DNA from: Candidatus Omnitrophota bacterium
GTDB taxonomy: Bacteria; Omnitrophota; Gorgyraeia; Gygaellales; UBA12090
NCBI GenBank assembly: GCA_030674475.1
Contig: JAUSCZ010000033.1
Span: forward strand, 52,018 to 116,017
Reading direction: 5' to 3'
Length of the DNA: 64,000 nucleotides
Below the pieces are notes generated by a model. That model searched no databases. It was not told where the DNA came from and saw only the letters and a program-made list of their open reading frames with translations. The first letter of the stretch is position 1. Each line of letters starts with the position of its first letter. Shown here in pieces: positions 24,651 to 63,814 of the stretch. Both the position numbers and the translations under genes were made by a program.

Positions 24651-24651
24651 T

Positions 24652-26991: not shown

Positions 26992-26994
26992 TTT

Positions 26995-27361: not shown

Positions 27362-27679
27362 ATGGGAGTCATAAAAGGAGTGCTTAAAGAAGAACTCGAG
27401 AATTCTATACGCATGAAAAGCGACTATGAGCGTGAATTGGCAAAGCTGCCTAAAGGCAGCCTCATTAAGAAAAAGGTTAAGGGGCATGAGTACTATTATC
27501 TTTTGTTGCGGGAGAAAGGGAAGGTAAGATTCATCTATAGAGGGAAAGTGTCTGATGAAGAAATAAAAAAATACAAAGAAGCAAAAGAATACAGGGCTAA
27601 GTACAGAAAATTATTATCTCAGGTAAAAAAACAAATTAGATTCTTAAGGAGCACTCTGCGTGGAAAAGAATCAATATGA
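27362..27679 (+). CDS. small basic protein, paralog B
   Basis: Paralog of the 24652 product; upstream inverted repeats agttaccatac / gtatggtaact. Confidence 0.6.
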   Translation: MGVIKGVLKEELENSIRMKSDYERELAKLPKGSLIKKKVKGHEYYYLLLREKGKVRFIYRGKVSDEEIKKYKEAKEYRAKYRKLLSQVKKQIRFLRSTLRGKESI

Positions 27680-28352: not shown

Positions 28353-28451
28353 TCTATGTAGTGTATGTATAAAGGAATAAGGGGTTATGCCTCAAAACTC
28401 CAAAATAGTCCTTGACGTTGGAATTGATAAGAGATTGGATAAATTGTAAAT

Positions 28452-29732: not shown

Positions 29733-29778
29733 ACCAATTTAAGCGTCTCTACAATGTTACCCTCGGCTGATCCAGGAT

Positions 29779-32064: not shown

Positions 32065-32165
32065 ATCAATTAAGCAATGACCATTTCGAGGATATCCTCG
32101 AAATGGTAGATAGCAGAAAACATAAAAAAGATTACGAGCAAAAAAAGCAAGAGGTTATTATTTAG

Positions 32166-32963: not shown

Positions 32964-33112
32964 AATTTTAAGAGGTTTTTTTGGAGTCCTGGGCCCTGGG
33001 TCAATGCCCCGTGTGACATCAGTCACAGGATACGTGACCCAGTAACTCCAAAAATAGGATATCACAAATCTCGAGTTTGTCAAGGTTTTAGATAGATAGA
33101 GAGAGAAATAAT

Positions 33113-35797: not shown

Positions 35798-35837
35798 AAG
35801 AAAGTCTGAAGAAGCAACTTGGACAAAGAATTGAAAT

Positions 35838-51527: not shown

Positions 51528-52952
51528 TTGAGGATGGTATATGTAATTACGATAGTTATCAGTATCTTGATTGCCCTGGCATTGGTTTATTTTTCGGGTT
51601 TATCCGCCCAAGGGGAGACGGGCCCGGGTAAAAAGAAATCAGATGGTGAACCAAAATCAATAGATGAGCCGGCCGTAGATGAGTCTTTAGAACAGGCCAT
51701 AAATGAGAAGCTGGGAAGTCTGGCCGGTTCCGCCGGCCACAGCCGCCAGGTAACCAAGATAATATCCGAGGTTTTTAATAAAGAGTTAGAGAAAAGAGTA
51801 ACTCAAACCAGCCAGGAGATAACCAGGAAATATGAGACTATTGTCCAGGATAAAGTCAAGAGCGAGGAGATAGCCTGGAAGAAGTTAGAGAAAGTCTCCG
51901 AGGATAAAAAAGAGACCGAAGCGGTTATCCGCAGTATTTCCGACGGGCTGGTAGTGGTGGATGCCAAAGGTAATGTAATGATGATGAATCCAGCGGCTGA
52001 GAAGCTTTTAGGAATGTCCGGAAAAAGCAAGATGGGCCGGCCTTTAACTGAAAACCTCAGAGAGGAACAGCTGGTATCTTTGATTAAGACCGGACAAGAA
52101 AGAAAGAATAGGGAAATAGAGTTAGTCAGTCAACAGGATGAGACCAGAAAGATTTTAAGGGCCTCCAGCGCGGTTATTGAGGACGCCGACGGTAAGACAG
52201 TGGGCATGGTTTCAGTCTTGAGCGATATCACTAAGCAGAGAGAACTGGATGAGCTAAAAGCGAATTTCGTGGCCAGCGTTACCCATGAACTGCGCACGCC
52301 TTTGGTGGCCATGGATAAATCCATTGCTCTTATCCTGAATAAAGACGCCGGTGAGCTTTCCCAGCCCCAGGAGGAAATTTTAAATATTGCCCAGCGCAAT
52401 TTAAAACGTTTGAGTTTCCTGATTAATGATCTGCTGGATTTATCCAAGCTGGAGGCCAGGAAGATGGCCTTTTCACGGCAGGCTTCAAGTTTAGAGAAAA
52501 TAGTTATTGATGCCGCGGAGGGTTTAACCAACTGGGCCAAGACTAAAGGAATTGAGATTATCAAAAAAATTCCTCAAGGCCTGCCCGATGTTGATGTTGA
52601 CCCCAACAGGATGATTCAGGTGTTTAATAACCTGATCGGCAATGCCATCAAATTTACCCCGCATGGCGGAAATGTTACTATTGAAGCAAGGATGGGTTCT
52701 GACAACTTGTATCTGGAGGTGAGTATTTTGGATACCGGAATCGGCATCACTAAAGAAAACTTACCTAAGGTTTTTGATAAGTTTTATCAGATTGGAGAGA
52801 GGTCTCCGGCGGATGTGAGCGGAACTGGGATAGGTCTGTCTATTGCCAAAGAGATTGTTGAGCTGCACGGGGGCAGGATCTGGGTAGAGAGTGAAAAAGG
52901 AAAAGGCGCTCAGTTCAACTTTACCCTGCCGATTGTCTCTCTTAAGGGATAA
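51528..52952 (+). CDS. sensor histidine kinase (TM + PAS + HisKA + HATPase_c)
   Basis: H-box [12 protein letters not shown] boxes [10 protein letters not shown] ... [18 protein letters not shown]. Confidence 0.85.
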
Positions 52953-52957
52953 AAACT

Positions 52958-53368
52958 ATGGAACCCAAAAATATTAAGGTGTTAGTTACCGATGATGAGG
53001 ATGATTTTCGTTATCTTTTAAGATACTGGCTCCAGGCCAGGGGGTATTCGGTGATAATGGCCTCTAGCGGAGAAGAGGCCATTAAGCTTACCAGAGAACA
53101 GAATCCGGATATTATTTTTATGGACTTAAGGATGCCGGCGATGGACGGAGTTCAGGCCATCGGAAAAATCCGCGAGTTTAACCACGATGTGCCGGTAATA
53201 ATCATCAGCGCTTATCTAGAGGATTTAAAGATAAAAGAGGCAAACAATTACGGCATTTCCGGCGTTTTTTATAAGGGCAAGGATTTTCAGCAGAGCATGC
53301 CTTTGATTGAATCAGCCTTAAGAACCCACAAAAAATTAAAAAAACCAGACCCGAATCCGAATGTGTAG
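52958..53368 (+). CDS. single-domain response regulator
   Basis: Receiver-domain Asp/Lys signature. Confidence 0.8.
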   Translation: MEPKNIKVLVTDDEDDFRYLLRYWLQARGYSVIMASSGEEAIKLTREQNPDIIFMDLRMPAMDGVQAIGKIREFNHDVPVIIISAYLEDLKIKEANNYGISGVFYKGKDFQQSMPLIESALRTHKKLKKPDPNPNV

Positions 53369-54392
53369 AGTTCTGTCTAATAATTTATTGCTAATTCCCT
53401 CCACCCTTCCCTCCCCCTTGTGGGGAGGGTTAGGGAGGGGGGAAATAAAAGCCTATCAGAAATTAATTAGACAATGCAGCATAAGTATAGTGTTACTATT
53501 ATTCAGTGTATTGTGCGGCCTTTCTCACGCGTATGCCGATGAGCCGGCTATGGAAGCCAGGAGGCATTATGAGAAGGGGAATCTTTATTACCAGCAAGGT
53601 TACTACCAAGAGGCCCTGGAGGAATTTCAAAAGGCCCTGGATGTTTCTGAGCCAAAAATTCCTCTGGGGGATATTTCTGAGGGCGCTTTAGCTGAAGAGA
53701 AGATCGTTAAATTAGCGGTTAGGAGAAAGGTGGAAGAGGAAGATTCATCTTCCGGTAACAGAGAGTATACTATAGACGTAGGTGATACCCTGGATATTTC
53801 AGTCTGGAAGGTCCCGGACTTATCTTCTTCTGAGGTGATTGTGCGCCCGGATGAAAAGATTTCTCTGCCTTTAATCGGGGATATTCAGGCGGTCGGGCGG
53901 ACCTTAACTGAGCTGGACGCGGAGGTTACCGAAAAATACGCCCTTTATGTGCGCGAACCCCAGGTATCGGTGATGATTAAGAAATTCGGCGGAAGCAAGG
54001 TGGTGGTTTTGGGAGACGTAAAAACTCCCGGGGTTTACAGCTTTAGCGGAGCTATTCGCCTGGCTGAGGCTATTGCCCTGGCCGGCGACTGCACCAAATA
54101 CGCGGTGAGAAACAATATCCTGGTGATAAGGGGAGATATTCATAATAATCCTGAGATAATTTCCGCCAATATGATTTCATTTGTTAAAAACGCGAAGTTA
54201 GGCGAAAACATATTAATCCAGCCCCAGGATGTGGTCTTTGTTCCCCGCAGTGTTATCGGCAATGTCAGTTCTTTCTTTGAAACAATCGCCCCGATTATAG
54301 ACGGTGTCTACAAGACCTCAACCACGGATATCTACATCAAAAATGCCAGAAGGGTAATGGAGAAAAGATCCACTGTCAGCATTTCCCAATAA
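53361..54392 (+). CDS. polysaccharide export protein (Wza/KpsD family, PES + SLBB) with N-terminal TPR-like segment
   Basis: DTLDISVW ... ISLPLIGDIQAVGRTLTEL ... VLGDVKTPG motifs. True start probably downstream (GTG ~53495), because a hairpin repeat occupies 53393-53447. Confidence 0.7.
   Translation: MCRVLSNNLLLIPSTLPSPLWGGLGRGEIKAYQKLIRQCSISIVLLLFSVLCGLSHAYADEPAMEARRHYEKGNLYYQQGYYQEALEEFQKALDVSEPKIPLGDISEGALAEEKIVKLAVRRKVEEEDSSSGNREYTIDVGDTLDISVWKVPDLSSSEVIVRPDEKISLPLIGDIQAVGRTLTELDAEVTEKYALYVREPQVSVMIKKFGGSKVVVLGDVKTPGVYSFSGAIRLAEAIALAGDCTKYAVRNNILVIRGDIHNNPEIISANMISFVKNAKLGENILIQPQDVVFVPRSVIGNVSSFFETIAPIIDGVYKTSTTDIYIKNARRVMEKRSTVSISQ
53393..53447. repeat. GC-rich hairpin element family C, copy 2 (aattccctcc...ggggagggttagggaggggggaa)
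   Basis: Homologous to 21911-21958. Confidence 0.7.
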
Positions 54393-54449
54393 GCCAAGAA
54401 TATCCAGTAGTTACCGCTTTTTCCTCTAAATAGGGGTTCAGTTTCTTAT

Positions 54450-54890
54450 ATGATGTATAGCAATAACAAGCAGGATGTCCTGGCCCGGTTATTGGTAGAG
54501 TCTTTGCGATACGCTGATGTATGGGTAAAGGTAAAAGGCGGCAGCATGGCCCCATGTTTAAAAGACGGGATGCTCGTGCTGGTAAGTAGTCCGGAAAGAA
54601 TATTTTGTTCAGATATATTGGTGTATCATTACGAAGGCGGAATTATTATTCATAGGTTAATGAGAAGATATAGGAAAGATGGGGGCAGCGCGCTCTATCA
54701 GACTAAGGCTGATAATGGATACGCCTTAGATGAACCGGTTAGTTTGGAAGATATCTGCGGAAAGGTTGTTGCTTTAAAAAGCGGTTCAGATATTATTAGG
54801 CTGGATAGTTTTTGGGGGCGGATAAGGGCAACGTGTTCTTACCTAGCTTCTTTGAGCAAGCTTGTGTTTCATAAATATGTCAAGGCATAA
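54450..54890 (+). CDS. S24/S26-family (signal peptidase/LexA-like) serine peptidase
   Basis: KGGSMAP Ser motif; ~146 aa. Confidence 0.55.
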   Translation: MMYSNNKQDVLARLLVESLRYADVWVKVKGGSMAPCLKDGMLVLVSSPERIFCSDILVYHYEGGIIIHRLMRRYRKDGGSALYQTKADNGYALDEPVSLEDICGKVVALKSGSDIIRLDSFWGRIRATCSYLASLSKLVFHKYVKA

Positions 54891-55674
54891 AGTAAGCTTT
54901 AGTATTGCCGGGGTTAATTTTGAGCTTGAGTCTGATAAAGCTGAACCTGTTCGGTGGCTAAGAGCAAGATACGCTCCCTATCTTAGTCAAGCAATGCCCG
55001 GGGTAAGAATCAGCCTTTGTTATAACTCGAGAAGATTACCTCCTCCGGGGAAGAAATTACTATGCGGACCATACATCATCTATGAAAACAGGGGTAGAAA
55101 TCTTGAATTTAAGATTTATGCCAAAGGCAGCTACATTGCCTTAGGAGATGTGCTGCGGTTTTTAATCTCGTTGGTACTTCTTGAAAATGGGGGCTTCTTG
55201 CTGCATTCCTGCGGAGTAATAATTGATGGCGGGGCGTATCTTTTTTCCGGTCCTTCCGGGGCGGGAAAGACCACCCTTGCCAGGCTTTTGCCTCAAGAAA
55301 ATGGCGAGACCATCTTAAGCGATGAAACTACCGCCATCACTAAAAACAGCGGCGGCTATTACGGTTGGGCGACCCCTTTTTTTGGGGACTTTGGCAGTAT
55401 CGGGGCAAATAATAAATCAGCTCTTAAGGCAATATTTTTCTTAAAACAGGCCAGGCGCTTTAAACTCAAAAGGCTTGAACCTGTTTATAGTTCGGCCAGG
55501 CTTTTAGGAAATATATTTCTCCTTGGCGGTAATTGGAGGTATAATTATAACATAGACAGGTTGTGTGATGCCGCCTTAGGCTGCAGCAGGAAGGTCGCGG
55601 CATACGAGTTGGAATTTTTGCCCAATAAGCGGGTATGGAACTATATAAAAGAAAAAATATCCCCTGGCGGATAA
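54862..55674 (+). CDS. HPr kinase/phosphorylase-related P-loop kinase (HprK C-terminal-like)
   Basis: FSGPSGAGKTTLA Walker A in an HprK-like context. Likely start at MSRHK (54877). Confidence 0.6.
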   Translation: MCFINMSRHKVSFSIAGVNFELESDKAEPVRWLRARYAPYLSQAMPGVRISLCYNSRRLPPPGKKLLCGPYIIYENRGRNLEFKIYAKGSYIALGDVLRFLISLVLLENGGFLLHSCGVIIDGGAYLFSGPSGAGKTTLARLLPQENGETILSDETTAITKNSGGYYGWATPFFGDFGSIGANNKSALKAIFFLKQARRFKLKRLEPVYSSARLLGNIFLLGGNWRYNYNIDRLCDAALGCSRKVAAYELEFLPNKRVWNYIKEKISPGG

Positions 55675-55895
55675 TTGATAAAGAAGCGCTGGTGGTTGAT
55701 CCCCAGAGCAGTCTGGTGTATCCATTCAATCGGGTTGCCGCGCGGATATGGCAATTGCTTGACGGCACCCACGGCCTTCAAGAGATAGCCGGTATAATTT
55801 ACAACGAATTTGAGGCGGATCAGGAAATCGCGGCTGAAGATACCAGGAATTTTATTTCTCAACTAAAAGAAGCCCGCCTGATTGAAAAGTTATGA
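55635..55895 (+). CDS. PqqD-family peptide-binding protein (RRE)
   Basis: VARIWQLLDG...LQEIAGIIYNEFE pattern; ~86 aa. Confidence 0.65.
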   Translation: MELYKRKNIPWRIIDKEALVVDPQSSLVYPFNRVAARIWQLLDGTHGLQEIAGIIYNEFEADQEIAAEDTRNFISQLKEARLIEKL

Positions 55896-56977
55896 GCAGC
55901 TTATTAGACGCAATTTATCAAAAGGCTGAAGACCTGCGCATCCCGCTTAATGTCTTGCTTGAGCTTACTAACCGATGCAATGAAGATTGTCTGCATTGCT
56001 ATATAAAAGACGCCAGGGACATAAATAGTCTTTCTAACGATGATAAGGAATTAACCTGCGCGCAGGTAACGGCCCTGTTGGATGAATTAGCCCGCGAGGG
56101 CGCCTTAAATCTTATCTTGAGCGGTGGAGAAGCGATGCTGCGGGAGGATTTTTTTGACATAGCTTATTTTGCCCGGTCCAGAAATTTTGCCCTAACCATC
56201 TTCTCCAACGGTCAGTTGATTGATCAAGCCAAGGCGAAAAGACTGGCGGATTTATCTCCGGTATGTATTTATTTTAGCCTTTACGGCTCAAGCGCCGATA
56301 CCCATGACCGTATTACCAGGGTGCCGGGTTCTTTTGAGAAGCTGCAAAACGCGATCATACTGCTTAAGCAAAATGGCCTTAAGGTCGGGTTGAAAACAAT
56401 CTTGATGCGCGGTAATATAGCTGAGCTTAAGGAAATATATGATTTAGGCCTGAGGCTGGGGATAGAAACGCATCAATTCGCGGAAGAGATAACCTCCCGG
56501 ATCGACGGCTCTGGCGCTTCTGAGGCCGCGCAGATTGATGAACCCGCGCTTTTTGCTTATTATCGCCAGGATGTGCCTAATCCTCCGGAATATATAAAAG
56601 AACTGCCTCAGGAAGAGGCCCGGAAAAAAGAGATTTGTTCCGCCGGGACATACGGGGTGGCTGTCTCTTGCTACGGAGATGTGTATCCTTGCGCGGAGTT
56701 GAGGCTTTCTTTGGGAAATATAAAAAATGAAACCTTTGGGGCTATATGGCAAAGGCAGGATAGTTTTCTGGACAAACTGCGCTCAATCAAACAATACGGG
56801 GATTTAGAAGATTGCCGGGATTGCGCTTTAGTGAATTTCTGCCGCAGGTGCCACGGCCGGGCCTGGTATGAGGCGGGTGATTGGAGCTCCTGTTATGAAA
56901 ACGCCCAGAAGAGGGCCTTTTTAAATAAAAGGATAAATACTGAAATCAGGCGAAAGAAGGAGGTGAACTTAGGATGA
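55892..56977 (+). CDS. radical SAM / SPASM-domain peptide-modifying enzyme
   Basis: CNEDCLHCY (CxxxCxxC) plus C-terminal Cys-rich SPASM (C...C...C ... CRDCALVNFCRRC). Confidence 0.85.
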   Translation: MSSLLDAIYQKAEDLRIPLNVLLELTNRCNEDCLHCYIKDARDINSLSNDDKELTCAQVTALLDELAREGALNLILSGGEAMLREDFFDIAYFARSRNFALTIFSNGQLIDQAKAKRLADLSPVCIYFSLYGSSADTHDRITRVPGSFEKLQNAIILLKQNGLKVGLKTILMRGNIAELKEIYDLGLRLGIETHQFAEEITSRIDGSGASEAAQIDEPALFAYYRQDVPNPPEYIKELPQEEARKKEICSAGTYGVAVSCYGDVYPCAELRLSLGNIKNETFGAIWQRQDSFLDKLRSIKQYGDLEDCRDCALVNFCRRCHGRAWYEAGDWSSCYENAQKRAFLNKRINTEIRRKKEVNLG

Positions 56978-57123
56978 CGAAAAAGGATAACTACGAGAAG
57001 CCGCAGCTTAAAGGTGAAAGGTTATTTGAGGCCGGGGCCAAGACTTGCTGTAAGGGCGCCGCTTGTACTACTTCCGAGAAAACCGGCGGGGGTAAAAGCT
57101 CTAATTCCAACACCACTTCTTAA
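56974..57123 (+). CDS. candidate RiPP precursor peptide, 49 aa (MTKKDNYEKPQLKGERLFEAGAKTCCKGAACTTSEKTGGGKSSNSNTTS)
   Basis: AAGGAGG RBS; ATG overlaps the radical-SAM stop codon (ATGA). Three Cys residues in a Gly/Ser/Thr-rich core. Absent from the ORF track because it is under 60 aa. Confidence 0.5.
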   Translation: MTKKDNYEKPQLKGERLFEAGAKTCCKGAACTTSEKTGGGKSSNSNTTS

Positions 57124-57128
57124 GCATA

Positions 57129-57899
57129 ATGCGTCGTAAGAATAAGGGCATAGCTTGGGAGTGGGGTAGATATTTAATTAATCTGCGAAAAAAGTACGAA
57201 GAGCAGGCAGAGGTAGGGTATTTTATCAGAGAGGTTTCTTTAGGGCTGGATGAGTCTGAAGTATTCCTGGTAAACGGTCCGATGAAAAAGCCCGGCTATG
57301 TTTTGGATGTGGGCTGCGGCGCGGGAAGAGAAGCCATAGTCCTGGCCAAGCTTGGTTACCGGCTAAAGGCAATTGATATCTCCATGGCTATGATCGAGGC
57401 AGCCAAAAAAGAAAGCCGGAAAGAGGGTTTGAACATAGATTTTGAAAGATTAGACATTACGGAATTGAATCCTGATGGCCTTTTTGATTATTGCCTTTTC
57501 TCAAGCGGGGTATATAATAGCATCCCGGCCCGGGCACTACGGATACAAACGCTTAAAAGGGTGGTAAGTTCTCTTAAGCCCCAGGGCAGGCTATTTCTTC
57601 CTATAGGTATTGCCCGGCGTCCCAAAATGATTTTTTCCCGCAGTTTTATAAAATATAATTTATCCGCCGGGCTAAAGTTTGTTCTGGGAGATAGGTGTAA
57701 AATTGAACCCGGGGATACCCTGATTAGTCAGGTGAGTCCGGTTAGTAAAAGCAGGGTGAAGGTATTTCACCACTTTTTTTTTAGCTTTTCAGAGATAAAG
57801 GATGAGCTTGAGGCTTCGGGCCTTTGTGCGCGGATGCTCAGCCCCGGGCTCTGGCAGGTAAGTAAGCCTTTCGCGGATGATATCCAGCCTCCGGTATAG
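57129..57899 (+). CDS. class I SAM-dependent methyltransferase
   Basis: VLDVGCGAGREA motif I. Confidence 0.75.
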   Translation: MRRKNKGIAWEWGRYLINLRKKYEEQAEVGYFIREVSLGLDESEVFLVNGPMKKPGYVLDVGCGAGREAIVLAKLGYRLKAIDISMAMIEAAKKESRKEGLNIDFERLDITELNPDGLFDYCLFSSGVYNSIPARALRIQTLKRVVSSLKPQGRLFLPIGIARRPKMIFSRSFIKYNLSAGLKFVLGDRCKIEPGDTLISQVSPVSKSRVKVFHHFFFSFSEIKDELEASGLCARMLSPGLWQVSKPFADDIQPPV

Positions 57900-58842
57900 A
57901 GAAAGGGCAGGCTTTAATATCGCCTCTTTGGATAAGCTGAATACATTGTTTAAGGAGTTAGAGCCTTTTCTGAAGATTCTTCTTTTAAAGGGAATTTCCC
58001 TGCTTAATACAGTATATGCCTGTGATATCGGAGCAAGGCATTTAGGCGACGTAGATATATTAGTAAGAAAGAAAGATTTCCCCCGCCTAAAAAAAACTCT
58101 TCACGACAAAGGCTACCTATTCAATAATAACATTACCCGGCCCCTGGATACGTGTTATTTAAATAGCGCGACCTGCGCAAAAGAAGATAAATTCTGCCCC
58201 CCATTTCATATCCATTGGCACTTAAGCAACGCCGCCTTTTCTACCGCTCTGTTTAGCCCCAGGATTAACCTGGAGAAAATCTGGCAAGAGGCAGAGCCCT
58301 TGAGCGGTTTTAAGAATGTCTGGATAATGTCTAGCCATCATCAGCTTATTCATCTTGGCGAGCACGCTTTAAAGCATAGCTATGACCGTCCTTATCTCCT
58401 GGAAGATATTCAGAGGGTGATTGAGTATTACCAGCGGAACCTTTGCTGGGAGAAGCTCATTGTTGACGCTAAGGCCTTTAATTTGACCCGTCCGCTATAT
58501 CATAGTTTGCACTTTGCCGCGGACATGCGAGGAGCGCGGGTTCCCGCGCGGGTATTGTCAAGCCTTAAGCCTGAAAGATTTAGTTTTTTGGAAAAGCGTT
58601 TTATCGCCGCGGTCAGGAAAGGAAAACGTTCGGAGCGTTTATCCGGCATAGTATATCTGGAAATGAATAAAACCTGCCTGGATAAGGTAAGCTACGTCTG
58701 GAGGACCTTTTTTCCTCCCGTAAAAATGATGGCCCAATTCAGAAATAGCTCAGGCCTTAAGCGTCTGAACCCTATTGATTATTGCCGCAGGGCCTATAAA
58801 GGGCTGAATTATTTTCTGGATATCGGACGCTGCCTCTTTTAG
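57877..58842 (+). CDS. nucleotidyltransferase-family protein
   Basis: CDIGARHLGDVDILV Pol-beta-like motif. Confidence 0.5.
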   Translation: MISSLRYRERAGFNIASLDKLNTLFKELEPFLKILLLKGISLLNTVYACDIGARHLGDVDILVRKKDFPRLKKTLHDKGYLFNNNITRPLDTCYLNSATCAKEDKFCPPFHIHWHLSNAAFSTALFSPRINLEKIWQEAEPLSGFKNVWIMSSHHQLIHLGEHALKHSYDRPYLLEDIQRVIEYYQRNLCWEKLIVDAKAFNLTRPLYHSLHFAADMRGARVPARVLSSLKPERFSFLEKRFIAAVRKGKRSERLSGIVYLEMNKTCLDKVSYVWRTFFPPVKMMAQFRNSSGLKRLNPIDYCRRAYKGLNYFLDIGRCLF

Positions 58843-58857
58843 GCCGCGGCACAGGCC

Positions 58858-59679
58858 TCAGGAATACAAGAGGCTGCCGTTTTTTTGGGCCTTTTTCAAA
58901 GCCGATTTAAAACTAAAAATACTCAAAGGGAAAAATAGAGCGGAAAAGAAAACTAAGGATAAAATTTGGGGGAGAATTTCTTTTACTGAACTGCCCAAAA
59001 TCAGGCTTTTGCGAACTGCCTCTAAGCAATAGGTAAGGGGAAGAAAAAAAGATATTTTTTGTAACCCTATCGGCAGCACCGCGATGGGAAAATATACTCC
59101 TCCCAGCAAACGAGATGCTCCGTAAAATAGCCAGTTTAGGGGATCCCCGCGTTTAAAGATTAAGGTAAAGCTGGCAGAGAGTATCCCTAATGCGCTAAAA
59201 GAGATGATGGTCAGCGCTAAAATAATCAGCGAAGAAGAAAGATTGGCCCGGCTTAAATTAAGGTCAAAGAATAGCCAGCCCAAGAATAAGTAGACTATAA
59301 CCCTAAAGGAAGTAAAAATAAATTTCCAGATAGAACTGCAGATGAGAACAGTAGATATTTTTGTAGGAGAAAGAACAATTGCCTCCAGCGTTCCGTAAGC
59401 TTGTTCTTCGGAAATTGCCTCGGTAAAGCTGCCCATTGCCGCGCTCATATAGCCGGAAAAAGCTATCCCGATTAAGACAAAAGAAAAATAATCTCCGCCG
59501 TAATCAGCCAGATGTTCCGCGGCTTTTCCGCCAAAAAGTTTGGCAATAAAAAAGAAGGTGACCACTGAAGATAGAATACTGATCAAGTCAAATAAGAATG
59601 CCGCCCGGTAGCTGGCGTTAATCAACAAATCCCTCTTGAGAAAAGCCAGGAGTTTTCTCAAAGATATATCAGGCTTCAT
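58858..59679 (-). CDS. ABC-2 type transporter permease
   Basis: Six TM segments; ABC-2 topology. Confidence 0.75.
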   Translation of the reverse strand: MKPDISLRKLLAFLKRDLLINASYRAAFLFDLISILSSVVTFFFIAKLFGGKAAEHLADYGGDYFSFVLIGIAFSGYMSAAMGSFTEAISEEQAYGTLEAIVLSPTKISTVLICSSIWKFIFTSFRVIVYLFLGWLFFDLNLSRANLSSSLIILALTIISFSALGILSASFTLIFKRGDPLNWLFYGASRLLGGVYFPIAVLPIGLQKISFFLPLTYCLEAVRKSLILGSSVKEILPQILSLVFFSALFFPLSIFSFKSALKKAQKNGSLLYS

Positions 59680-60451
59680 TTTCTTCGTTGATTGTTTTTA
59701 AATATAATTCTTCCAGGGTAGAATCTTTATTCAGGCCGTATTTTATCTTTATTTCATCCGGTTTCCCGAAAGCCTTGATTCTCCCTTTATCCATAATCGC
59801 GATTTCATCAGCCAGGCTTTCCGCCTCTGATATCTGGTGGGTGGTAAAAAATACGGTTTTACCCAATTCTCTCACTAATTTTTCTTTAATGAATTTCCTG
59901 AAATTTAAGGCCCCGGCGGGGTCAAGTCGGGAAGTGGGTTCATCCATAAAGATAATTTCAGGTTCACTCAGTAGACACCTTAGCAGGCTCAGGCGTTGTT
60001 TCATTCCACTGGAATAATTCTGAAAGGGTTTATCCAGGTCATCAATCTCTAATAGGTTAGAAAGATAGCGCGTTTTTTCCTTTATCCGGGCCGGGGAAAG
60101 ATTATAGAGTATGCCGAAGAATTCCAGGTTTTGCCTTCCGCTGAGGCGCCAATAAAATCCCTTTTCTTCAGAGAACACCAGGCCGATCCGGGATTTTAGG
60201 CTTTGGCTCTGGGTAATTAGATCATATCCCAGAATTTTGGCTGTGCCTTGATCAGGTAATATTAAGGTAGAGAGTATTTTTAGGAGTGTGGTTTTACCCG
60301 CGCCATTAGGCCCTAATAGCGCCAGTATCCGGCCGGGGTTTAATTTAAAGCTTACCTGGTCTAAGGCCAGGATTTCTTTATTTTTCTGGAAAGGCGAAAA
60401 TAAAGGTTTAGGCAGAAAAAATCTTTTGCTGATATTGTGGACCTCAAGCAT
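59669..60451 (-). CDS. ABC transporter ATP-binding protein (start chosen at MLEVHNISKRF; the ORF extends to 60733)
   Basis: LLGPNGAGKTTL Walker A, LSGRQN signature-like, IIFMDEP Walker B. Confidence 0.8.
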   Translation of the reverse strand: MLEVHNISKRFFLPKPLFSPFQKNKEILALDQVSFKLNPGRILALLGPNGAGKTTLLKILSTLILPDQGTAKILGYDLITQSQSLKSRIGLVFSEEKGFYWRLSGRQNLEFFGILYNLSPARIKEKTRYLSNLLEIDDLDKPFQNYSSGMKQRLSLLRCLLSEPEIIFMDEPTSRLDPAGALNFRKFIKEKLVRELGKTVFFTTHQISEAESLADEIAIMDKGRIKAFGKPDEIKIKYGLNKDSTLEELYLKTINEENEA

Positions 60452-60659
60452 ATTTTTAACTTTATCAGAACCCCAGAGCTGTGTCAATACATTCATATAA
60501 AACCAATGACCACGGAAGAAGTCTTTTTCGCGGCCAGGCAATTGTTGAATAAACCCCGTTAGAAAGGACGGGGCTTTTATCCTGCCATTTCTACAAGGAA
60601 TTAAACTTTCATATCTTTCATCCCCGCCATAAATGGCGGGGCTTTCTAACGGGGTAAAG

Positions 60660-61829
60660 ATGCTTAAGAGAGTCCTGCATATACATACCTTGCCGGTAAT
60701 TAGCGGTTCGGGAATCCATACCTTGATTACCATGCGGGGATTGAAAGGCCGGGGTTATGAGGTGGAGTTTGCCTGCGCTCCCGGCGGGGCGTTGATTGAT
60801 GAGGTTATTAAGATGGGGATACCTTTTCATCCCATAAGATTTTCCGCGCAAAAGATTAATATATTTGCTGATGGTTACGCTTTAATTGAGCTGGTTTGGT
60901 TAATGCGCCGGCGAAAATACACGATTATTCATACCCACAATACTAAGGCGGGATTTTTAGGAAGATTAGCCGGGGCCTTGACTGGTGTGCCGGTCATTGT
61001 GCATACGGTTCATGGATTCGCCTTTCATGATTTTGAGAAACCAGCGTTTCGTAAATTATTTATTATTCTGGAGAGGATTGCTTCTAGATTTGCCGATAAA
61101 TTGATTGCCGTGTCCACGCCTTTAAAAGAGTGGGGATTAAGGCTTAAGGTGGGTAGTAAAGAAAAATACGTGATAATTCACGACGGAATTGAAATAGAAA
61201 GGTTCAATATAAAGATTGATCCGGAAGAAGTAAAACAAAAACTCGGAATTCAGAGGGGAAATTTAGTAGTGGGAACAGTGGCAAAGTTGTGGCCGGGGAA
61301 AGGTCATCACATTATTCTTGAAGCGGCTCCTGCTATTATTAAGGCGGTTCCCAATGTCCAGTTTCTTTTTGTTGGAGACGGATATCTACGTCCTGATTTA
61401 GAAAGGATCGTTGAGGGAAAAGGCCTGAGTAATTATGTGATATTTACCGGTTTTAGGGCGGATATACCCGAAATCACCGCGATTTTCGATCTGGCGGTAT
61501 TGGCTTCTTTCTTTGAGGGATTGGGCCGGGTGCTTTTAGAAGCCATGGTCTTAGGTAAGCCGGTGGTGGCTAGTCGGGTAGGTGGCATCCCGGAGGTAGT
61601 TATTGAAGGGGTGAATGGTTTTTTAGTTTCTCCGGATGATTCTCAAACTTTGGCCCGGCAGATAGTCAAACTGCTAAAAGATGAGGAGCTTCGCCGGAGA
61701 ATGGGGCAGGCGGGAAAAAGGATGATTGATGAAAGATTTTCCGCCCAGAGGATGGTAAGCGATATTGTGAATGTATACGAGGAATTACTGAAAATGAAAG
61801 GCATTTATAGGAAATCAGCCATTGGATAA
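60660..61829 (+). CDS. glycosyltransferase family 4 (GT1-fold)
   Basis: C-terminal EGLGRVLLEAM...GKPVVAS...GGIPEV motif. Start taken at MLKRV (the ORF is open from 60633). Confidence 0.8.
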   Translation: MLKRVLHIHTLPVISGSGIHTLITMRGLKGRGYEVEFACAPGGALIDEVIKMGIPFHPIRFSAQKINIFADGYALIELVWLMRRRKYTIIHTHNTKAGFLGRLAGALTGVPVIVHTVHGFAFHDFEKPAFRKLFIILERIASRFADKLIAVSTPLKEWGLRLKVGSKEKYVIIHDGIEIERFNIKIDPEEVKQKLGIQRGNLVVGTVAKLWPGKGHHIILEAAPAIIKAVPNVQFLFVGDGYLRPDLERIVEGKGLSNYVIFTGFRADIPEITAIFDLAVLASFFEGLGRVLLEAMVLGKPVVASRVGGIPEVVIEGVNGFLVSPDDSQTLARQIVKLLKDEELRRRMGQAGKRMIDERFSAQRMVSDIVNVYEELLKMKGIYRKSAIG

Positions 61830-61891
61830 AATCATTGTAAATAAAGAGGTTATGAGCTATAATCTTCCCTATAAAAGGAGAAACTAAATAA

Positions 61892-63814
61892 GTGGCTCAG
61901 TATGAATTAAATCTAAGGGATTATTGGCAGATTATCCGCAAGAGGCGAGAGGTGTTGATAACGATATTTCTTTCTGTTTCTATTTTTTCCGTTATCTACG
62001 CCAATACACAAAGCCCAGTTTACCAGGCAAGTGCTTCGGTGCGGTGGATAGAGCGCCGGCCGTTGGGAAGTTTATTGACCGAGTTGGTCCAGGTAGATAC
62101 AGGCGACCCCCTGGCCACTCAGAAGATGCTAATCACCAGCCTCCCGGTTATGGAGAGGGTGGTGATGGACCTGGGGCTGGTTGGTGAGCCAAACGCAAGC
62201 GCCCCAACGACAGAAGTTATGCGTAAGGCTGAGGAATTGCAGGGGGCGGTCTCGGTAGAGGTGATTGGCGATACCAATATATTGAAGATAACGGTAACCT
62301 ATCCCGAGCCTAAGATGGCGGCGGATATAGCTAATAAGGCCGCGGAGTCTTATATCGCCGAGAATTTAAAGGAAAAAACCAGGGAAAGTCGTGGCGTCAG
62401 GGAGTTTATCGAGAGGCAATTGACCGAGGTAAGCGCGAAATTGAGGACTTCCGAAGATGAACTGGCCAGGTTTAATGAAATAGAGTCCCCCTCGGGCATA
62501 GCCGTGCCTTTACAGAACAGGCTCGCGGAATTGGATTCTAAGCGGCAGGGCCTGCTTCAGATCTATACCCCGCTGCATCCGGATGTCAAGGCCATTGATG
62601 AGCAGATAGAGGAAGTAAAGCAGCGGCTCAGGAAACTTCCTCAAAAGGAGCTGGACTTCAGCCGTTTAAGCCGGGAGGTGGAAATCAACTCCAAGCTGTA
62701 TCTTGACCTGAAAGGCAAATTAGAGGGCGCCCGTATTTCCGAGGCGGAAAAAACCGAGGATGTAAGCCTGGTTGATCGGGCTGTTCCGCCCAGCTCTCCG
62801 ATCAGTCCGAATAAACCCTTGAATTATCTTTTCGGGGTAATTGTCGGCGCGATGCTGGGTTTGGCCGGGGCATTTATGACGGAGCAGGTAGATACCTCTA
62901 TCGGCACGATTGAAGATGTGGAGAATTTCTTGAAACTGCCCGCGCTGGGAATTATCCCATATTTAAAGGTTAAAGGTGAAAAACCCCGGGGCTTCATTCA
63001 AAGGCTAATCCCTAAGAAACTCAAGTTTGAAGAAAAGATGGCTTTGGTAAAGAAGCAGTTGGTGATTTATTATTCGGCCTCATCTACTATTTCTGAGGCC
63101 TATAGAATGCTCCGGGCCAAGATTCAGACCGAAATATTTAAGGAAAAAATACAAGGGAAGATACTTTTGTTGAGCAGTTCCAGCCCAGAGGAGGGCAAAT
63201 CCATTACTTCTTCTAATCTGGCGGTGGTGATGGCCCAGGGAGGCTTACGCACCTTATTGATTGACGCGGATATGCGCCGCTCGACCATTCATCATATCTT
63301 TGGATTAAAGAAAAAGGAACCGGGTTTATGCGATATTTTAAGAGGAACGGTCAAGCCGGAAGAGGCCATTCGCACTTTTACTGATATCCTGATGGGTGAG
63401 CTGGGTTTTGATGAGGCCCTGAAGATTCCCGGACTGGACAATCTAAGCATCCTGACCAGCGGCTCGGTCCCCAATATTCCGGCTGAGCTTATTTCCTCCG
63501 GAGAGATGTTCGACTTGTTGGATAAACTGCGTTTGAAGTTTGATCTTATCTTGATTGATTCTCCTCCGGTTTTGGCGGTAGCGGACGCGGTGATTTTGGC
63601 CCCTAAGGCTGACGGGGTAATTCTGGTATACAGGGTAGGGTCTGTGGCTCGTTCGGTATTGTCCCGGGCAAAATCGCAGTTAATAGAAGCCGGAGGCCAG
63701 GTAAAAGGCATAATCTTAAACAATATTTCCTCCGAGATTGAGACGCGCTATGCCTATTCCTATCAGTATAGAGGTTACGGCAAATATTACGCGGATGAGA
63801 AGAAAGGGGAATAG
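61892..63814 (+). CDS. polysaccharide biosynthesis tyrosine autokinase / chain-length determinant (Wzc/GumC-like)
   Basis: N-terminal Wzz-like TM + coiled coil; C-terminal P-loop (SSSPEEGKS ... DSPP) CpsD/MinD-like ATPase. Confidence 0.8.
   Translation: MAQYELNLRDYWQIIRKRREVLITIFLSVSIFSVIYANTQSPVYQASASVRWIERRPLGSLLTELVQVDTGDPLATQKMLITSLPVMERVVMDLGLVGEPNASAPTTEVMRKAEELQGAVSVEVIGDTNILKITVTYPEPKMAADIANKAAESYIAENLKEKTRESRGVREFIERQLTEVSAKLRTSEDELARFNEIESPSGIAVPLQNRLAELDSKRQGLLQIYTPLHPDVKAIDEQIEEVKQRLRKLPQKELDFSRLSREVEINSKLYLDLKGKLEGARISEAEKTEDVSLVDRAVPPSSPISPNKPLNYLFGVIVGAMLGLAGAFMTEQVDTSIGTIEDVENFLKLPALGIIPYLKVKGEKPRGFIQRLIPKKLKFEEKMALVKKQLVIYYSASSTISEAYRMLRAKIQTEIFKEKIQGKILLLSSSSPEEGKSITSSNLAVVMAQGGLRTLLIDADMRRSTIHHIFGLKKKEPGLCDILRGTVKPEEAIRTFTDILMGELGFDEALKIPGLDNLSILTSGSVPNIPAELISSGEMFDLLDKLRLKFDLILIDSPPVLAVADAVILAPKADGVILVYRVGSVARSVLSRAKSQLIEAGGQVKGIILNNISSEIETRYAYSYQYRGYGKYYADEKKGE

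What the first reader, a model, noticed from the sequence alone, without database searches (positions are those of the whole stretch)
54450..60451. RiPP-like cluster embedded in the EPS locus: HprK-related kinase + PqqD + radical SAM/SPASM + overlooked Cys-containing precursor + methyltransferase + nucleotidyltransferase + ABC exporter
Consecutive, overlapping + strand genes encode:
- an S24/S26 peptidase;
- an HprK-like P-loop kinase;
- a PqqD/RRE-like protein;
- a CxxxCxxC radical SAM with a SPASM domain;
- a 49-aa ORF (56974-57123; AAGGAGG RBS; ATG overlapping the rSAM stop) with the motif KTCCKGAACTTSEKTGGG;
- a class I methyltransferase;
- a nucleotidyltransferase.
A divergent ABC-2 exporter pair lies on the - strand.
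The combination of HprK-related kinase, PqqD and rSAM/SPASM matches a conserved neighbourhood I recall from TIGRFAMs (the HprK-related kinase A system). As far as I know its product is uncharacterised.
The Cys-containing peptide is the obvious candidate substrate (thioether/ranthipeptide-like). The kinase and nucleotidyltransferase could add further modifications.
Basis: partly seen in the sequence, partly recalled or inferred. Interest (0 to 1): 0.8.

Follow-up and report, generated by a model that had tools for sequence, protein, structure and literature searches.

The report
Widespread unnamed radical-SAM peptide cassette
This is a real gene cassette for a small modified peptide whose 49-codon precursor gene one gene caller missed; it belongs to a large unnamed family in groundwater and soil bacteria that pairs radical-SAM chemistry with the kinase and nucleotidyltransferase known from lasso peptides, and its product is unknown.

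Summary
Window 54450-60451 (a Candidatus Omnitrophota MAG) encodes a tightly overlapping operon: SipW/archaeal-type signal-peptidase homologue, P-loop kinase, PqqD, radical SAM/SPASM enzyme, 49-aa ORF, methyltransferase and NTP_transf_5. A convergent ABC-2 exporter pair follows.

The same peptide type sits beside homologous rSAM genes down to about 35% identity in Omnitrophota, NC10, Acidobacteriota and other phyla. A profile finds at least 3,918 unnamed peptides (739 clusters at 50% identity).

Conserved features:
- Leader Y-x-K-P-x-[L/F], with the first Cys exactly 18 residues after the Tyr.
- An Ala at Tyr+15.
- Two conserved Cys.
- A C-terminal Ser (120/120 and 55/57).

The kinase model has the HprK/PEPCK fold and the catalytic motif of characterised lasso-precursor kinases. 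Gene fusions (peptidase-kinase, peptidase-NTase, MTase-NTase) tie the enzymes together.

Membership of the HprK-rel-A system is not supported: all models score far below cut-off, and the nearest, SynChlorMet ScmC/ScmD, also fail. The EPS embedding is lineage-specific.

Best reading: a new RiPP variant. The leader is bound by PqqD, the Cys are cross-linked by the rSAM, the C-terminal Ser is phosphorylated and further decorated, the leader is cut off, and the peptide is exported. The chemistry is inferred, not shown.

The parts
54450..54890 (+). Leader-peptidase candidate: soluble or tail-anchored homologue of SipW/archaeal-type signal peptidase I (S26B-like), 146 aa
   Evidence: PF00717 scores 32.3 bits (cut-off 23.3). 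TIGR02228 sigpep_I_arch scores 48.9 bits (cut-off 51.85). In 14 homologues Ser32 (G.SM.P), His68-Arg69 and Asp88 (KGD) are invariant. It is fused to the kinase in P0132 and to NTP_transf_5 in L012 and L082.
54877..55674 (+). HprK/PEPCK-fold P-loop kinase (Pfam ScmC family PF27840 by precomputed annotation), 265 aa; proposed peptide Ser kinase
55635..55895 (+). Stand-alone PqqD-type RiPP recognition element (RRE), 86 aa
   Evidence: PF05402 scores 57.2 bits. The best NCBIfam matches are ScmD at 37.6 bits and lasso PqqD chaperones at about 28 bits, all below cut-off. It is present in nearly all related loci.
55892..56977 (+). Radical SAM/SPASM peptide maturase, 361 aa (CxxxCxxC at C29/C33/C36; SPASM Cys C249, C267, C308, C311, C317, C320 invariant, plus C334)
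56957..56963 (+). Shine-Dalgarno AAGGAGG of the precursor gene
   Evidence: Read directly from the sequence; it lies 10 nt upstream of the ATG at 56974.
56974..57123 (+). Precursor peptide gene, 49 aa. The leader is about codons 1-22/24 (Y7-E-K-P-Q-L12 at 56992-57009; Ala22 at 57037-57039). The core holds C25, C26, K27 (57046-57054), C31 (57064-57066) and the C-terminal Ser49 (57118-57120).
   Evidence: It is conserved beside homologous rSAM genes at 94% to about 35% identity. A profile finds 3,918 proteins and 739 representatives at 50% identity. Leader nucleotide identity to L003 is 95.8% against 73% for the core, with the Cys and the terminal Ser preserved through synonymous changes. It was not called in L091, an assembly of the same organism. 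It has no Pfam or NCBIfam hit.
57129..57899 (+). Class I SAM-dependent methyltransferase, 256 aa (tailoring enzyme, target unknown)
   Evidence: Methyltransf_25 scores 61.9 bits. It is fused to NTP_transf_5 in L001 (494 aa) and L004 (536 aa).
57877..58842 (+). NTP_transf_5 'uncharacterised nucleotidyltransferase', 321 aa; proposed to decorate the phosphorylated peptide
   Evidence: PF14907 scores 97.9 bits. A GDVDIL (DxD) motif is present in the translation. It is present in 7/9 Omnitrophota loci and 30/66 other loci. It is fused to the peptidase (L012, L082) or to the MTase. It has no solved homologue by sequence.
58858..59679 (-). ABC-2 type permease, 273 aa (exporter or immunity)
   Evidence: PF01061 scores 56.2 bits. 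It travels with the cassette outside EPS loci as well, in 16 of 66 other loci.
59669..60451 (-). ABC transporter ATPase, 260 aa (true start at 60451, not the 354-aa mechanical ORF)
   Evidence: PF00005 scores 102.4 bits and drrA 216.8 bits. Homology to the 260-aa L003 protein starts at Met95 of the long ORF.
53361..54392 (+). Flanking EPS gene: TPR + Poly_export/SLBB outer-membrane polysaccharide export protein (context, not part of the cassette)
   Evidence: PF02563 scores 81.4 bits. TIGR03027 pepcterm_export scores 129.6 bits against a cut-off of 180.
60633..63814 (+). Flanking EPS genes: GT4 glycosyltransferase (60633-61829) and Wzz/GNVR/AAA_31 chain-length/tyrosine-kinase protein (61892-63814) (context)
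   Evidence: Pfam results.

Best explanation
This is a biosynthetic cassette for a ribosomally made, post-translationally modified peptide (RiPP) of a type not yet described. The proposed pathway has five steps.

1. The 49-aa precursor has an N-terminal leader (KK..Y-E-K-P-x-L...E..A) that is bound by the stand-alone PqqD protein. This is inferred from the known role of PqqD-type RREs and from the lasso-like YxxPxL leader architecture.

2. The radical SAM/SPASM enzyme then modifies the core at the invariant Cys residues. The most likely product is one or two intramolecular thioether cross-links. This is inferred.

3. The HprK/PEPCK-fold kinase, helped by the RRE, phosphorylates the peptide, most likely on the invariant C-terminal Ser. 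This is inferred by analogy with paeninodin, pseudomycoidin and the ThcoK/SyanK lasso kinases. The NTP_transf_5 protein then adds a further group to that phosphate (hexose in pseudomycoidin), and the methyltransferase adds a methyl group nearby. Both steps are inferred.

4. The signal-peptidase-like Ser/His/Asp protease removes the leader at the conserved [A/V/T]-x-Ala junction, 2-3 residues before the first Cys. This is inferred.

5. The ABC-2 transporter exports the product. This is inferred.

What is shown: the gene set and its conservation, the precursor family and its invariant positions, the folds and catalytic motifs, and the gene fusions. The chemistry and the product are not shown.
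For: Precursor:
- A peptide of the same type sits beside the rSAM in all close relatives and in 62 of 90 fetched loci.
- Of 57 distinct peptides, 55 end in Ser. Of the 120 best database members, 120 end in Ser.
- 117 of those 120 have the fixed core C-G-K-x7-C-x6-S.
- The family has 3,918 members at 90% clustering and 739 at 50%.
- Leader nucleotide identity to L003 is 95.8% against 73% for the core, between strains whose flanking genes are 95.6% identical. The Cys and the terminal Ser are kept through synonymous changes.

Leader and RRE:
- The Tyr of YxxPx[L/F] lies exactly 18 residues before the first Cys in 129/130 peptides.
- Tyr+15 is Ala in 128/130. In lasso leaders YxxPxL spans -17 to -12, so Tyr+15 is the -2 recognition position (PMC10368454).

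rSAM:
- It has a full CxxxCxxC plus a 7-Cys SPASM.
- Its nearest structures are the RiPP maturases SkfB and CteB (thioether), SuiB, ChlB and PqqE.

Kinase:
- It has the HprK/PEPCK-specific fold.
- It carries the same H...G..G.GK[ST]...D[DE] motif and spacing as experimentally validated lasso-precursor kinases.
- The lasso RRE BsfB1 greatly enhances BsfK. Here the kinase and PqqD genes overlap by 40 nt.
- Lasso kinases PadeK, PsmK, ThcoK and SyanK phosphorylate the C-terminal Ser of precursors, and PsmN is needed for hexose on the phosphate (PMC8498205; PMC6993621).

Functional coupling:
- Fusions link peptidase to kinase (P0132), peptidase to NTP_transf_5 (L012, L082), and MTase to NTP_transf_5 (L001, L004).

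Peptidase:
- Ser/His/Asp are invariant, and small residues stand at -1/-3 of the proposed site.

Exporter:
- The ABC-2 pair accompanies the cassette in non-EPS loci too.
Against: - No product or modification has been observed, so every chemical step is by analogy.
- Lasso kinases do not always target the C-terminal Ser. BsfK phosphorylates Ser3 of the core.
- The C-terminal Ser also occurs in 6 of 8 related loci where no kinase was detected within the fetched flanks. The Ser-kinase correlation is therefore not clean.
- The kinase has no significant match to the Hpr_kinase_C Pfam model or to HprK chains by sequence. Only the fold and the motif agree.
- I could not test whether PsmN or BsfN belong to PF14907.
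- NTP_transf_5, the MTase and the ABC pair are absent from many family members. They are accessory, so the minimal product does not need them.
- No conserved thioether acceptor residue is evident across both peptide subtypes.
- The cleavage site is ambiguous among three adjacent positions. The residue before Cys is Leu or Ile in L094 and L093.
- The rigid acidobacterial core looks more like a cofactor or signal precursor than a typical secreted antibiotic.
Confidence: 0.6

Rival explanations
1. The peptide is the precursor of an intracellular cofactor or a dedicated signal, analogous to PQQ or mycofactocin. In those systems a small, highly conserved peptide, a PqqD-type chaperone, an rSAM/SPASM enzyme and a peptidase together yield a small redox-active or signalling molecule.
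For: - The acidobacterial core is rigid in length and sequence: CGKx7Cx6S in 117/120, with T, Q, N, R and K nearly invariant. That is unlike diversifying antimicrobial RiPPs.
- The minimal cassette of peptide, peptidase, kinase, PqqD and rSAM often lacks a transporter.
- Acidobacterial and Thermomonas rSAMs score 136-143 bits on the mycofactocin maturase model.
Against: - The MftC model cut-off is 265 bits and is not reached. The window rSAM scores 102 bits.
- In the Omnitrophota clade the core is hypervariable between close strains.
- An ABC-2 exporter accompanies the cassette in this window and in many loci.
- The PQQ and mycofactocin systems contain no kinase.
- No dependent oxidoreductase genes were seen nearby.
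Confidence: 0.15
2. In Omnitrophota and NC10 the modified peptide is functionally part of exopolysaccharide production. It could be a phospho-Ser-linked primer or anchor on which sugars are built, or a signal controlling the locus. The ABC-2 transporter and neighbouring glycosyltransferases would then act on a peptide-glycan conjugate.
For: - The cassette lies between Poly_export and GT4/Wzz here.
- It is again inside EPS loci in L001, L005, L010, L094 and NC10 L007, despite different gene orders and only 37-54% rSAM identity.
- A GT2 gene sits between the cassette and the ABC pair in L001 and L093.
- There is precedent for hexoses on the C-terminal phospho-Ser of a RiPP.
- The Omnitrophota cores carry long Ser/Thr-rich tails.
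Against: - The family as a whole is not EPS-linked: only 2 of 66 other loci carry EPS markers, and L092 lies next to NRPS genes.
- L093 lacks Poly_export and Wzz.
- No peptide-primed polysaccharide pathway is known.
- Co-location could simply reflect insertion of a mobile accessory cassette into a variable locus.
Confidence: 0.1
3. The kinase does not decorate the C-terminus. It activates an internal Ser or Thr for elimination, as in class III/IV lanthipeptide synthetases, and a Cys then adds to the dehydro-residue. Alternatively it acts on a non-peptide substrate.
For: - The core contains Cys plus Ser/Thr.
- BsfK shows that lasso-type kinases can target an internal Ser.
- A nearly invariant Thr exists in the acidobacterial core.
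Against: - No lyase or cyclase domain is present in any annotated locus.
- The only hydroxyl residue invariant across both peptide subtypes is the C-terminal Ser.
- An rSAM/SPASM enzyme already accounts for the Cys chemistry.
Confidence: 0.08
4. The cassette is a member of the TIGRFAMs HprK-related kinase A system, or of the SynChlorMet cassette.
For: There are weak hits to HprK_rel_A (19.7 bits), PqqD_rel_X (19.4), ScmC (36.1), ScmD (37.6) and ScmE (96.7). Precomputed Pfam places the kinase in PF27840 'ScmC'.
Against: Every one of these NCBIfam models is far below its curated cut-off (200, 35, 125, 100, 400). The same holds for acidobacterial and Thermomonas members. Going by its NCBIfam models, the SynChlorMet cassette has two rSAM proteins (ScmE and ScmF); there is one here.
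Confidence: 0.03
5. The small ORF is a chance ORF, and the rSAM acts on a non-peptide substrate such as a heme-like tetrapyrrole or a sugar, since its best NCBIfam hits are AhbD and NirJ.
For: The top NCBIfam scores are the heme-related AhbD, NirJ2 and NirJ (125-143 bits). The ORF was not called in L091.
Against: - Those scores are far below the cut-offs of 500 or more.
- The ORF is conserved as protein across phyla, with invariant motifs and synonymous changes at key codons.
- A PqqD RRE is adjacent.
- The top structural neighbours are peptide maturases.
Confidence: 0.02

Closest known systems
Tailoring module of phosphorylated or phosphoglycosylated lasso peptides (paeninodin PadeK/PadeB1; pseudomycoidin PsmK/PsmN; ThcoK, SyanK; Bradymonas BsfK/BsfB1/BsfN)
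   Same: - An HPr-kinase-like peptide kinase with the same His / P-loop / acidic motif and spacing.
- A stand-alone PqqD-type RRE.
- A leader with YxxPxL at a fixed distance from the core, and a conserved residue at the lasso '-2' position.
- A precursor ending in Ser.
- An accompanying uncharacterised nucleotidyltransferase that is sometimes fused to the leader peptidase.
- An ABC exporter.
   Different: - No lasso cyclase (Asn-synthetase-like C protein) and no transglutaminase-type B2 protease in the window ORFs I annotated or in any annotated relative.
- The core-modifying enzyme is a radical SAM/SPASM protein.
- The peptidase is a signal-peptidase I homologue.
- The core has invariant Cys rather than the Gly1/Asp-Glu ring residues.
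- The kinase is too distant for sequence-level detection of Hpr_kinase_C.
SynChlorMet (SCM) cassette of TIGRFAMs/NCBIfam: ScmC, ScmD (PqqD-like), ScmE and ScmF (rSAM/SPASM)
   Same: The same three protein types stand side by side. ScmC and ScmD are the best NCBIfam matches of the kinase and PqqD, and precomputed Pfam puts the kinase in family PF27840 'ScmC'.
   Different: All four models are far below cut-off: 36/125, 38/100, 97/400 and 70/400 bits. There is one rSAM here, not two. The cassette also has a signal-peptidase homologue, a defined Cys...Ser-stop precursor, and accessory NTase, MTase and ABC-2 genes. As far as I know the product of the SCM cassette is uncharacterised too; I found no paper on it.
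Thioether RiPPs made by rSAM/SPASM enzymes (sactipeptides such as SkfA/SkfB and subtilosin/AlbA; ranthipeptides such as CteA/CteB)
   Different: The RRE is a separate protein rather than an N-terminal domain. The AlbA, SkfB and StsB models score far below cut-off: 64/850, 62/300 and 97/625 bits. Only 2-3 Cys are present and no recognisable acceptor pattern. Kinase, NTase and MTase tailoring is not known for these classes.
PQQ and mycofactocin pathways (PqqA/D/E; MftA/B/C/E)
   Same: A short conserved precursor modified near its C-terminus, a stand-alone PqqD-type chaperone, an rSAM/SPASM enzyme and a dedicated peptidase. PqqE is among the top structural and sequence neighbours.
   Different: The PqqE model scores 90.6/381 bits and the MftC model 102/265 bits, so neither is met. 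The precursor motifs differ, and those pathways have no kinase or NTase.
HprK-related kinase A system (TIGR04352 + TIGR04353)
   Same: An HprK-like P-loop kinase next to a PqqD-family protein.
   Different: The models score 19.7/200 and 19.4/35 bits, so this is not a member.

Membership tests
HprK-related kinase A system (NCBIfam TIGR04352/TIGR04353) | Kinase reaches the curated cut-off of TIGR04352 (200 bits) | tested here: not met
   19.7 bits. Acidobacterial and Thermomonas homologues score 21.5 and 24.5 bits.
HprK-related kinase A system (NCBIfam TIGR04352/TIGR04353) | PqqD protein reaches the cut-off of TIGR04353 (35 bits) | tested here: not met
   19.4 bits.
SynChlorMet cassette (TIGR04248-TIGR04251) | ScmC, ScmD, ScmE and ScmF models reach cut-offs of 125, 100, 400 and 400 bits | tested here: not met
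   36.1, 37.6, 96.7 and 69.9 bits.
SynChlorMet cassette (TIGR04248-TIGR04251) | Two rSAM/SPASM proteins (ScmE and ScmF) in the cassette | tested here: not met
   There is a single rSAM gene in the window and in all annotated relatives.
Pfam PF27840 (ScmC family) | Match to the Pfam model | tested here: met
   The precomputed Pfam hit PF27840 is recorded for the 100%-identical protein P0121 and for all 85 listed homologues except one, and in the locus tables. The model is not in the local Pfam copy, so no score was obtained here.
HPr kinase/phosphorylase-PEPCK P-loop kinase fold | Specific fold similarity, and the His / P-loop / acidic catalytic motif | tested here: met
RiPP (generic definition) | Genetically encoded precursor with a conserved leader and a core, adjacent to modifying enzymes | tested here: met
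RiPP (generic definition) | RiPP recognition element (PqqD-like) present | tested here: met
   PF05402 scores 57.2 bits.
RiPP (generic definition) | Post-translationally modified mature product | not testable with these tools
   Needs expression and mass spectrometry.
Radical SAM/SPASM maturase | CxxxCxxC motif plus the SPASM Cys set for two auxiliary clusters | tested here: met
   C29/C33/C36 are invariant. C249-x12-G-x4-C267 and C308-x2-C311-x5-C317-x2-C320 are invariant, and C334 follows. SPASM PF13186 scores 40.1 bits.
Sactipeptide / ranthipeptide | Cys sulfur-to-carbon thioether cross-links in the product | not testable with these tools
   Only indirect support: invariant Cys and structural neighbours SkfB and CteB.
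Sactipeptide / ranthipeptide | Maturase matches a curated sactipeptide maturase model (AlbA, SkfB, StsB) | tested here: not met
   64/850, 61.7/300 and 97.3/625 bits.
Lasso peptide | Asn-synthetase-like cyclase (C) and transglutaminase-like leader protease (B2) | tested here: not met
   Neither domain appears in the window ORFs I scanned or in annotated homologous loci.
Lasso peptide | Leader YxxPxL motif at a fixed register, with a conserved residue at -2 | tested here: met
   Y-x-[K]-P-x-[L/F] is present. Tyr to first Cys is 18 residues in 129/130 peptides. Tyr+15 is Ala in 128/130, where lasso leaders have Thr, Ile or Val.
Phosphorylated-lasso-type tailoring (PadeK/PsmK + PsmN) | Precursor ends in Ser, the phosphorylation site | tested here: met
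   120/120 and 55/57 end in Ser. Phosphorylation itself was not tested.
Phosphorylated-lasso-type tailoring (PadeK/PsmK + PsmN) | The nucleotidyltransferase belongs to the same family as PsmN/BsfN | not testable with these tools
The paper calls PsmN a member of 'a family of uncharacterized nucleotidyltransferases' with a catalytic DxD. The window protein is PF14907 with GDVD. No paper in the library links PF14907 to lasso clusters.
Signal peptidase I, archaeal/ER/SipW type (S26B; TIGR02228) | Model cut-off of 51.85 bits | tested here: not met
   48.9 bits, just below cut-off. Pfam Peptidase_S24 is met at 32.3 bits against 23.3.
Signal peptidase I, archaeal/ER/SipW type (S26B; TIGR02228) | Catalytic Ser (G.SM.P), His (HR) and Asp (GD) boxes | tested here: met
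   S32, M33, P35, H68, R69 and D88 are invariant in 14 homologues. Assigning these to the S26B boxes rests on my own knowledge of the family.
Mycofactocin / PQQ systems | rSAM reaches the MftC (265 bits) or PqqE (381 bits) cut-off | tested here: not met
   102.1 and 90.6 bits.

The most novel reading that the evidence does not exclude
The cassette makes a new class of RiPP: a radical-SAM cross-linked peptide carrying a phosphodiester-linked substituent on its C-terminal serine. In Omnitrophota and NC10 this peptide is mechanistically part of exopolysaccharide assembly. For example, it could serve as the phospho-Ser-linked primer or anchor on which the locus's glycosyltransferases build a chain, which is then exported by the ABC-2 / Poly_export machinery. 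That would be a peptide-primed polysaccharide pathway with no known precedent.
Probability: 0.08. Interest if true: 0.92.

Novelty: new variant of a known kind. Interest (0 to 1): 0.68.

Why it matters
**Scale.** The precursor family is large: at least 3,918 sequences at 90% clustering and 739 clusters at 50%. Every name a source gives is 'hypothetical protein', and no Pfam or NCBIfam model matches. The family is common in Acidobacteriota, a dominant soil phylum, and it also occurs in Omnitrophota and NC10, which are known almost only from metagenomes.

**Modular exchange between RiPP classes.** The cassette shows that the lasso-type leader, RRE, kinase and nucleotidyltransferase module can be combined with a radical SAM/SPASM enzyme and a signal-peptidase-type protease. 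This gives a concrete example of such exchange and a directly testable route to a new scaffold: a cross-linked peptide with a C-terminal phospho-Ser.

**Clear experimental handles.**
- A fixed-format 18-19-residue core in Acidobacteriota.
- A hypervariable core in Omnitrophota.
- An invariant Ser to mutate.

**Possible EPS link.** The repeated embedding in EPS loci in Omnitrophota raises a testable question about a link between a modified peptide and polysaccharide export.

Tried and rejected
1. **HprK-rel-A and SynChlorMet membership.** I scanned the window proteins and the acidobacterial/Thermomonas homologues against NCBIfam. All were far below cut-off, so membership is rejected.

3. **Solved homologue of the NTP_transf_5 protein.** None was found by sequence. 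No structure was predicted, because no permitted alignment was available and both prediction jobs went to the kinase and the rSAM.

4. **Literature searches.** These found nothing: 'SynChlorMet/ScmC/HprK-related kinase' (swamped by unrelated acronyms); 'radical SAM + HPr kinase + PqqD + precursor peptide' (0 papers); 'HprK + radical SAM + RiPP' (0); the TIGR accessions (0); PF14907 (one unrelated phosphonate paper); and rSAM/SPASM/Acidobacteria/RiPP/kinase/PqqD (nothing describing this architecture). Much of the subscription literature is not searchable, so absence is not proof.

5. **'Cleavage directly before the first Cys'.** I first proposed this from -3 = Ala and -1 = Ser/Ala/Thr. I then weakened it because L093 and L094 have Ile and Leu at -1. 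Cleavage after the invariant Ala fits better, and the lasso register would put the cut one residue later. This is left open.

6. **Clean correlation between kinase presence and C-terminal Ser.** Not obtained: 6 of 8 loci without a detected kinase also end in Ser.

7. **EPS linkage as a family property.** Rejected: only 2 of 66 non-Omnitrophota/NC10 loci carry EPS markers.

8. **Promoter/terminator scan of 53300-61000.** No enrichment over shuffles.

9. **Second precursor copy in the window.** None found.

Full report
**1. What is in the sequence**

On the + strand there is a chain of genes:
- 54450-54890 (146 aa)
- 54862/54877-55674 (270/265 aa)
- 55635-55895 (86 aa)
- 55892-56977 (361 aa)
- 56974-57123 (49 aa)
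- 57129-57899 (256 aa)
- 57877-58842 (321 aa)

The genes overlap by 40, 4, 4 and 23 nt, with one 5-nt gap. The 49-aa ORF has AAGGAGG 10 nt upstream, and its ATG overlaps the rSAM stop codon (ATGA).

On the - strand, tail-to-tail with this operon, lie an ABC-2 permease (58858-59679) and an ABC ATPase. The true start of the ATPase is 60451, not the 354-aa mechanical ORF.

Pfam and NCBIfam confirm Peptidase_S24, PqqD, Radical_SAM + SPASM, class I methyltransferase, NTP_transf_5, ABC2_membrane and ABC_tran.

The flanks are EPS genes: TPR-Poly_export at 53361-54392, GT4 at 60633-61829 and Wzz/GNVR/AAA_31 at 61892-63814. The EPS locus begins only at about 50.6 kb, and the rest of the window is housekeeping plus a defence island.

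The kinase is 100% identical to a 'hypothetical protein' of a Candidatus Omnitrophota MAG.

**2. The small ORF is a real, conserved precursor**

I fetched loci around rSAM homologues at 94, 58, 54, 45, 41 and 37% identity. Every one has a 49-67-aa ORF of the same type next to the rSAM, even where the gene order differs. Two more long Omnitrophota contigs show the same thing.

A scan of one genome per species returned 80 further loci, from Omnitrophota, NC10/Methylomirabilota, many Acidobacteriota, Thermomonas, Nitrospinae, Aerophobetes and others. An iterative search with the window peptide found a homologue in 62 of the 90 loci. There were 57 distinct peptides, 55 of which end in Ser, and the two exceptions look frameshifted.

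In Terriglobia the gene lies upstream of the peptidase rather than after the rSAM (45 versus 14 loci).

A profile of 21 peptides found 3,918 proteins in the 5.8-billion-protein collection. All are 45-65 aa, every source name is 'hypothetical protein', and none has a Pfam domain. An exhaustive HMM search of 1.84 billion representatives found 739 clusters at E<=1e-3, with the match nearly always running to the last residue.

Among the 120 best hits, all end in Ser. 117 have exactly C-G-K-x7-C-x6-S.

Against the close relative L003 (flanking genes 95.6% nucleotide identity), the leader codons are 95.8% identical. The core codons are only 73% identical, with 12 non-synonymous and 3 synonymous changes. 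C25, C26, K27, C31, G40, K41 and S49 are nevertheless retained, two of them through synonymous substitutions. This is the classic pattern of conserved leader and variable core.

The ORF was not called in another assembly of the same organism (L091), so it was overlooked there. No Pfam or NCBIfam model matches any of the peptides.

**3. The enzymes**

*Peptidase.* It keeps the Ser (G.SM.P), His-Arg and Asp (KGD) boxes and scores 48.9 bits on the archaeal-type signal peptidase I model, whose cut-off is 51.85.

*NTP_transf_5.* It has a GDVD motif.

*Fusions.* Gene fusions link the components:
- peptidase + kinase (P0132)
- peptidase + NTP_transf_5 (L012), and peptidase + GNAT + NTP_transf_5 (L082)
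- methyltransferase + NTP_transf_5 (L001, L004)

**4. Relation to lasso-peptide tailoring**

The literature shows four things:
- HPr-kinase homologues in lasso clusters phosphorylate the side chain of the precursor's C-terminal Ser before cyclisation. They recognise essentially only that Ser (PMC8498205).
- In pseudomycoidin a nucleotidyltransferase-family protein, PsmN, is required to put one or two hexoses on that phosphate (PMC6993621).
- Such nucleotidyltransferases are sometimes fused to the leader peptidase.
- The RRE BsfB1 strongly stimulates the kinase BsfK.

Lasso leaders carry YxxPxL at -17 to -12 and a recognition residue at -2. In the present family the Tyr of Y-x-K-P-x-[L/F] is exactly 18 residues before the first Cys in 129/130 peptides. 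The residue at Tyr+15, the lasso -2 position, is Ala in 128/130.

The leader architecture, RRE, kinase, nucleotidyltransferase and terminal Ser therefore mirror the lasso tailoring module. The lasso cyclase and B2 protease are absent. An rSAM/SPASM enzyme and a signal-peptidase homologue stand in their place.

**5. Most likely mechanism**

This is inferred, with overall confidence about 0.6:
- PqqD binds the leader.
- The rSAM cross-links the core through the invariant Cys, probably as thioethers.
- The kinase phosphorylates the peptide, most likely at the terminal Ser.
- NTP_transf_5 and the methyltransferase decorate that end.
- The peptidase cuts at the [A/V/T]-x-Ala junction. The exact bond is uncertain: after A22, K23 or T24.
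- The ABC-2 pair exports the product.

Caveats:
- BsfK shows that the phosphorylation site need not be C-terminal.
- The terminal Ser also occurs in a few loci where no kinase was seen.
- The accessory genes are missing from many members.
- No acceptor residue can be named.
- The very rigid acidobacterial core suggests a conserved cofactor-like or signalling role there. The Omnitrophota core, by contrast, is diversifying.

**6. EPS context**

The cassette lies inside or next to EPS genes in the window and in L001, L005, L010, L094 and NC10 L007, despite rearrangements. L093 has only a GT2 and the ABC pair. Only 2 of 66 other kinase-bearing loci, mostly Acidobacteriota, have EPS markers. L092 is a bare five-gene cassette next to NRPS genes.

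The ABC-2 pair and NTP_transf_5 accompany the cassette outside EPS loci, so they belong to the cassette rather than to the EPS machinery. The EPS association is therefore lineage-specific. A functional link remains possible but unproven.

**7. Comparison and novelty**

The cassette is not a member of the HprK-rel-A system or of the SynChlorMet cassette. It is also not a member of the curated sactipeptide (AlbA, SkfB, StsB), PQQ or mycofactocin maturase families I checked; every one of those models is far below cut-off.

It works like a hybrid of an rSAM/SPASM RiPP pathway and the lasso tailoring module. I found no paper describing this architecture, though the searchable library is incomplete.

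I rate it a new variant of a known kind (RiPP), with a large, unnamed precursor family. Interest is 0.68. It is a solid, experimentally tractable lead with broad distribution, but the product and its function are unknown and the enzyme types are individually familiar.

Noticed in passing
window 4662-4748 (+): A c-di-GMP-I-GGC riboswitch aptamer (RF03167, 59 bits, exactly at the gathering score). The next large ORF downstream (5485-6519, 344 aa) has no Pfam hit, and about 740 nt lie between them.
   Followed up: partly
window about 22600-35800: A low-GC island (0.34-0.39 against about 0.45 elsewhere) with defence-type genes: HATPase_c_3 (22606-24414), GmrSD type IV restriction enzyme (25300-26991), NTP_transf_8 (27660-28352) next to a 426-aa protein with no Pfam hit (28452-29732), an N6/N4 DNA methylase (29779-32064), DUF3800 (32166-32963) and a ResIII helicase (33113-35797).
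   Followed up: partly
window 51528-53368; L093 5467-9593; L009 1843-7168: A PAS sensor histidine kinase plus a response regulator sits just upstream of the cassette or its Poly_export neighbour, in the window and in two other Omnitrophota loci. This may be a dedicated regulator of the cassette or the EPS locus.
   Followed up: no
L001 15149-17084; L007 3023-5699; L009 7217-9110: An AAA_22/AAA_16 ATPase gene paired with an HD_5 (HD-domain) gene recurs beside the cassette in Omnitrophota and NC10 loci. The window ends before the position where it would be expected, after the Wzz gene.
   Followed up: no
L094 2727-8285: In one Omnitrophota relative a 1,852-aa Peptidase_C25 (gingipain-like) protein is inserted between the NTP_transf_5 gene and the rSAM gene of the cassette.
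   Followed up: no
L082 3892-5970: A triple fusion: signal-peptidase-like domain + GNAT acetyltransferase + NTP_transf_5. It suggests N-acetylation as a further tailoring step in some family members.
   Followed up: partly
L014, L085, L088, L089, L090 (small ORFs after the rSAM): More distant rSAM relatives (Dehalococcoidales, Nitrospinae, Lachnospiraceae, Clostridiales, Aerophobetes) have adjacent peptides that keep the [Y/F]-x-[K/S]-P-x-[L/I/V] leader. Their Cys-containing cores differ, and most do not end in Ser (P, G, K, T; the L088 peptide does end in Ser). These are probably sister RiPP families sharing the same leader/RRE logic.
   Followed up: partly
L092 12316-20816: In an acidobacterial genome the minimal cassette lies directly next to a multi-gene NRPS cluster on the opposite strand.
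   Followed up: no
window 7862-7937 (+): tRNA-Pro (GGG), the only tRNA in the window.
   Followed up: yes
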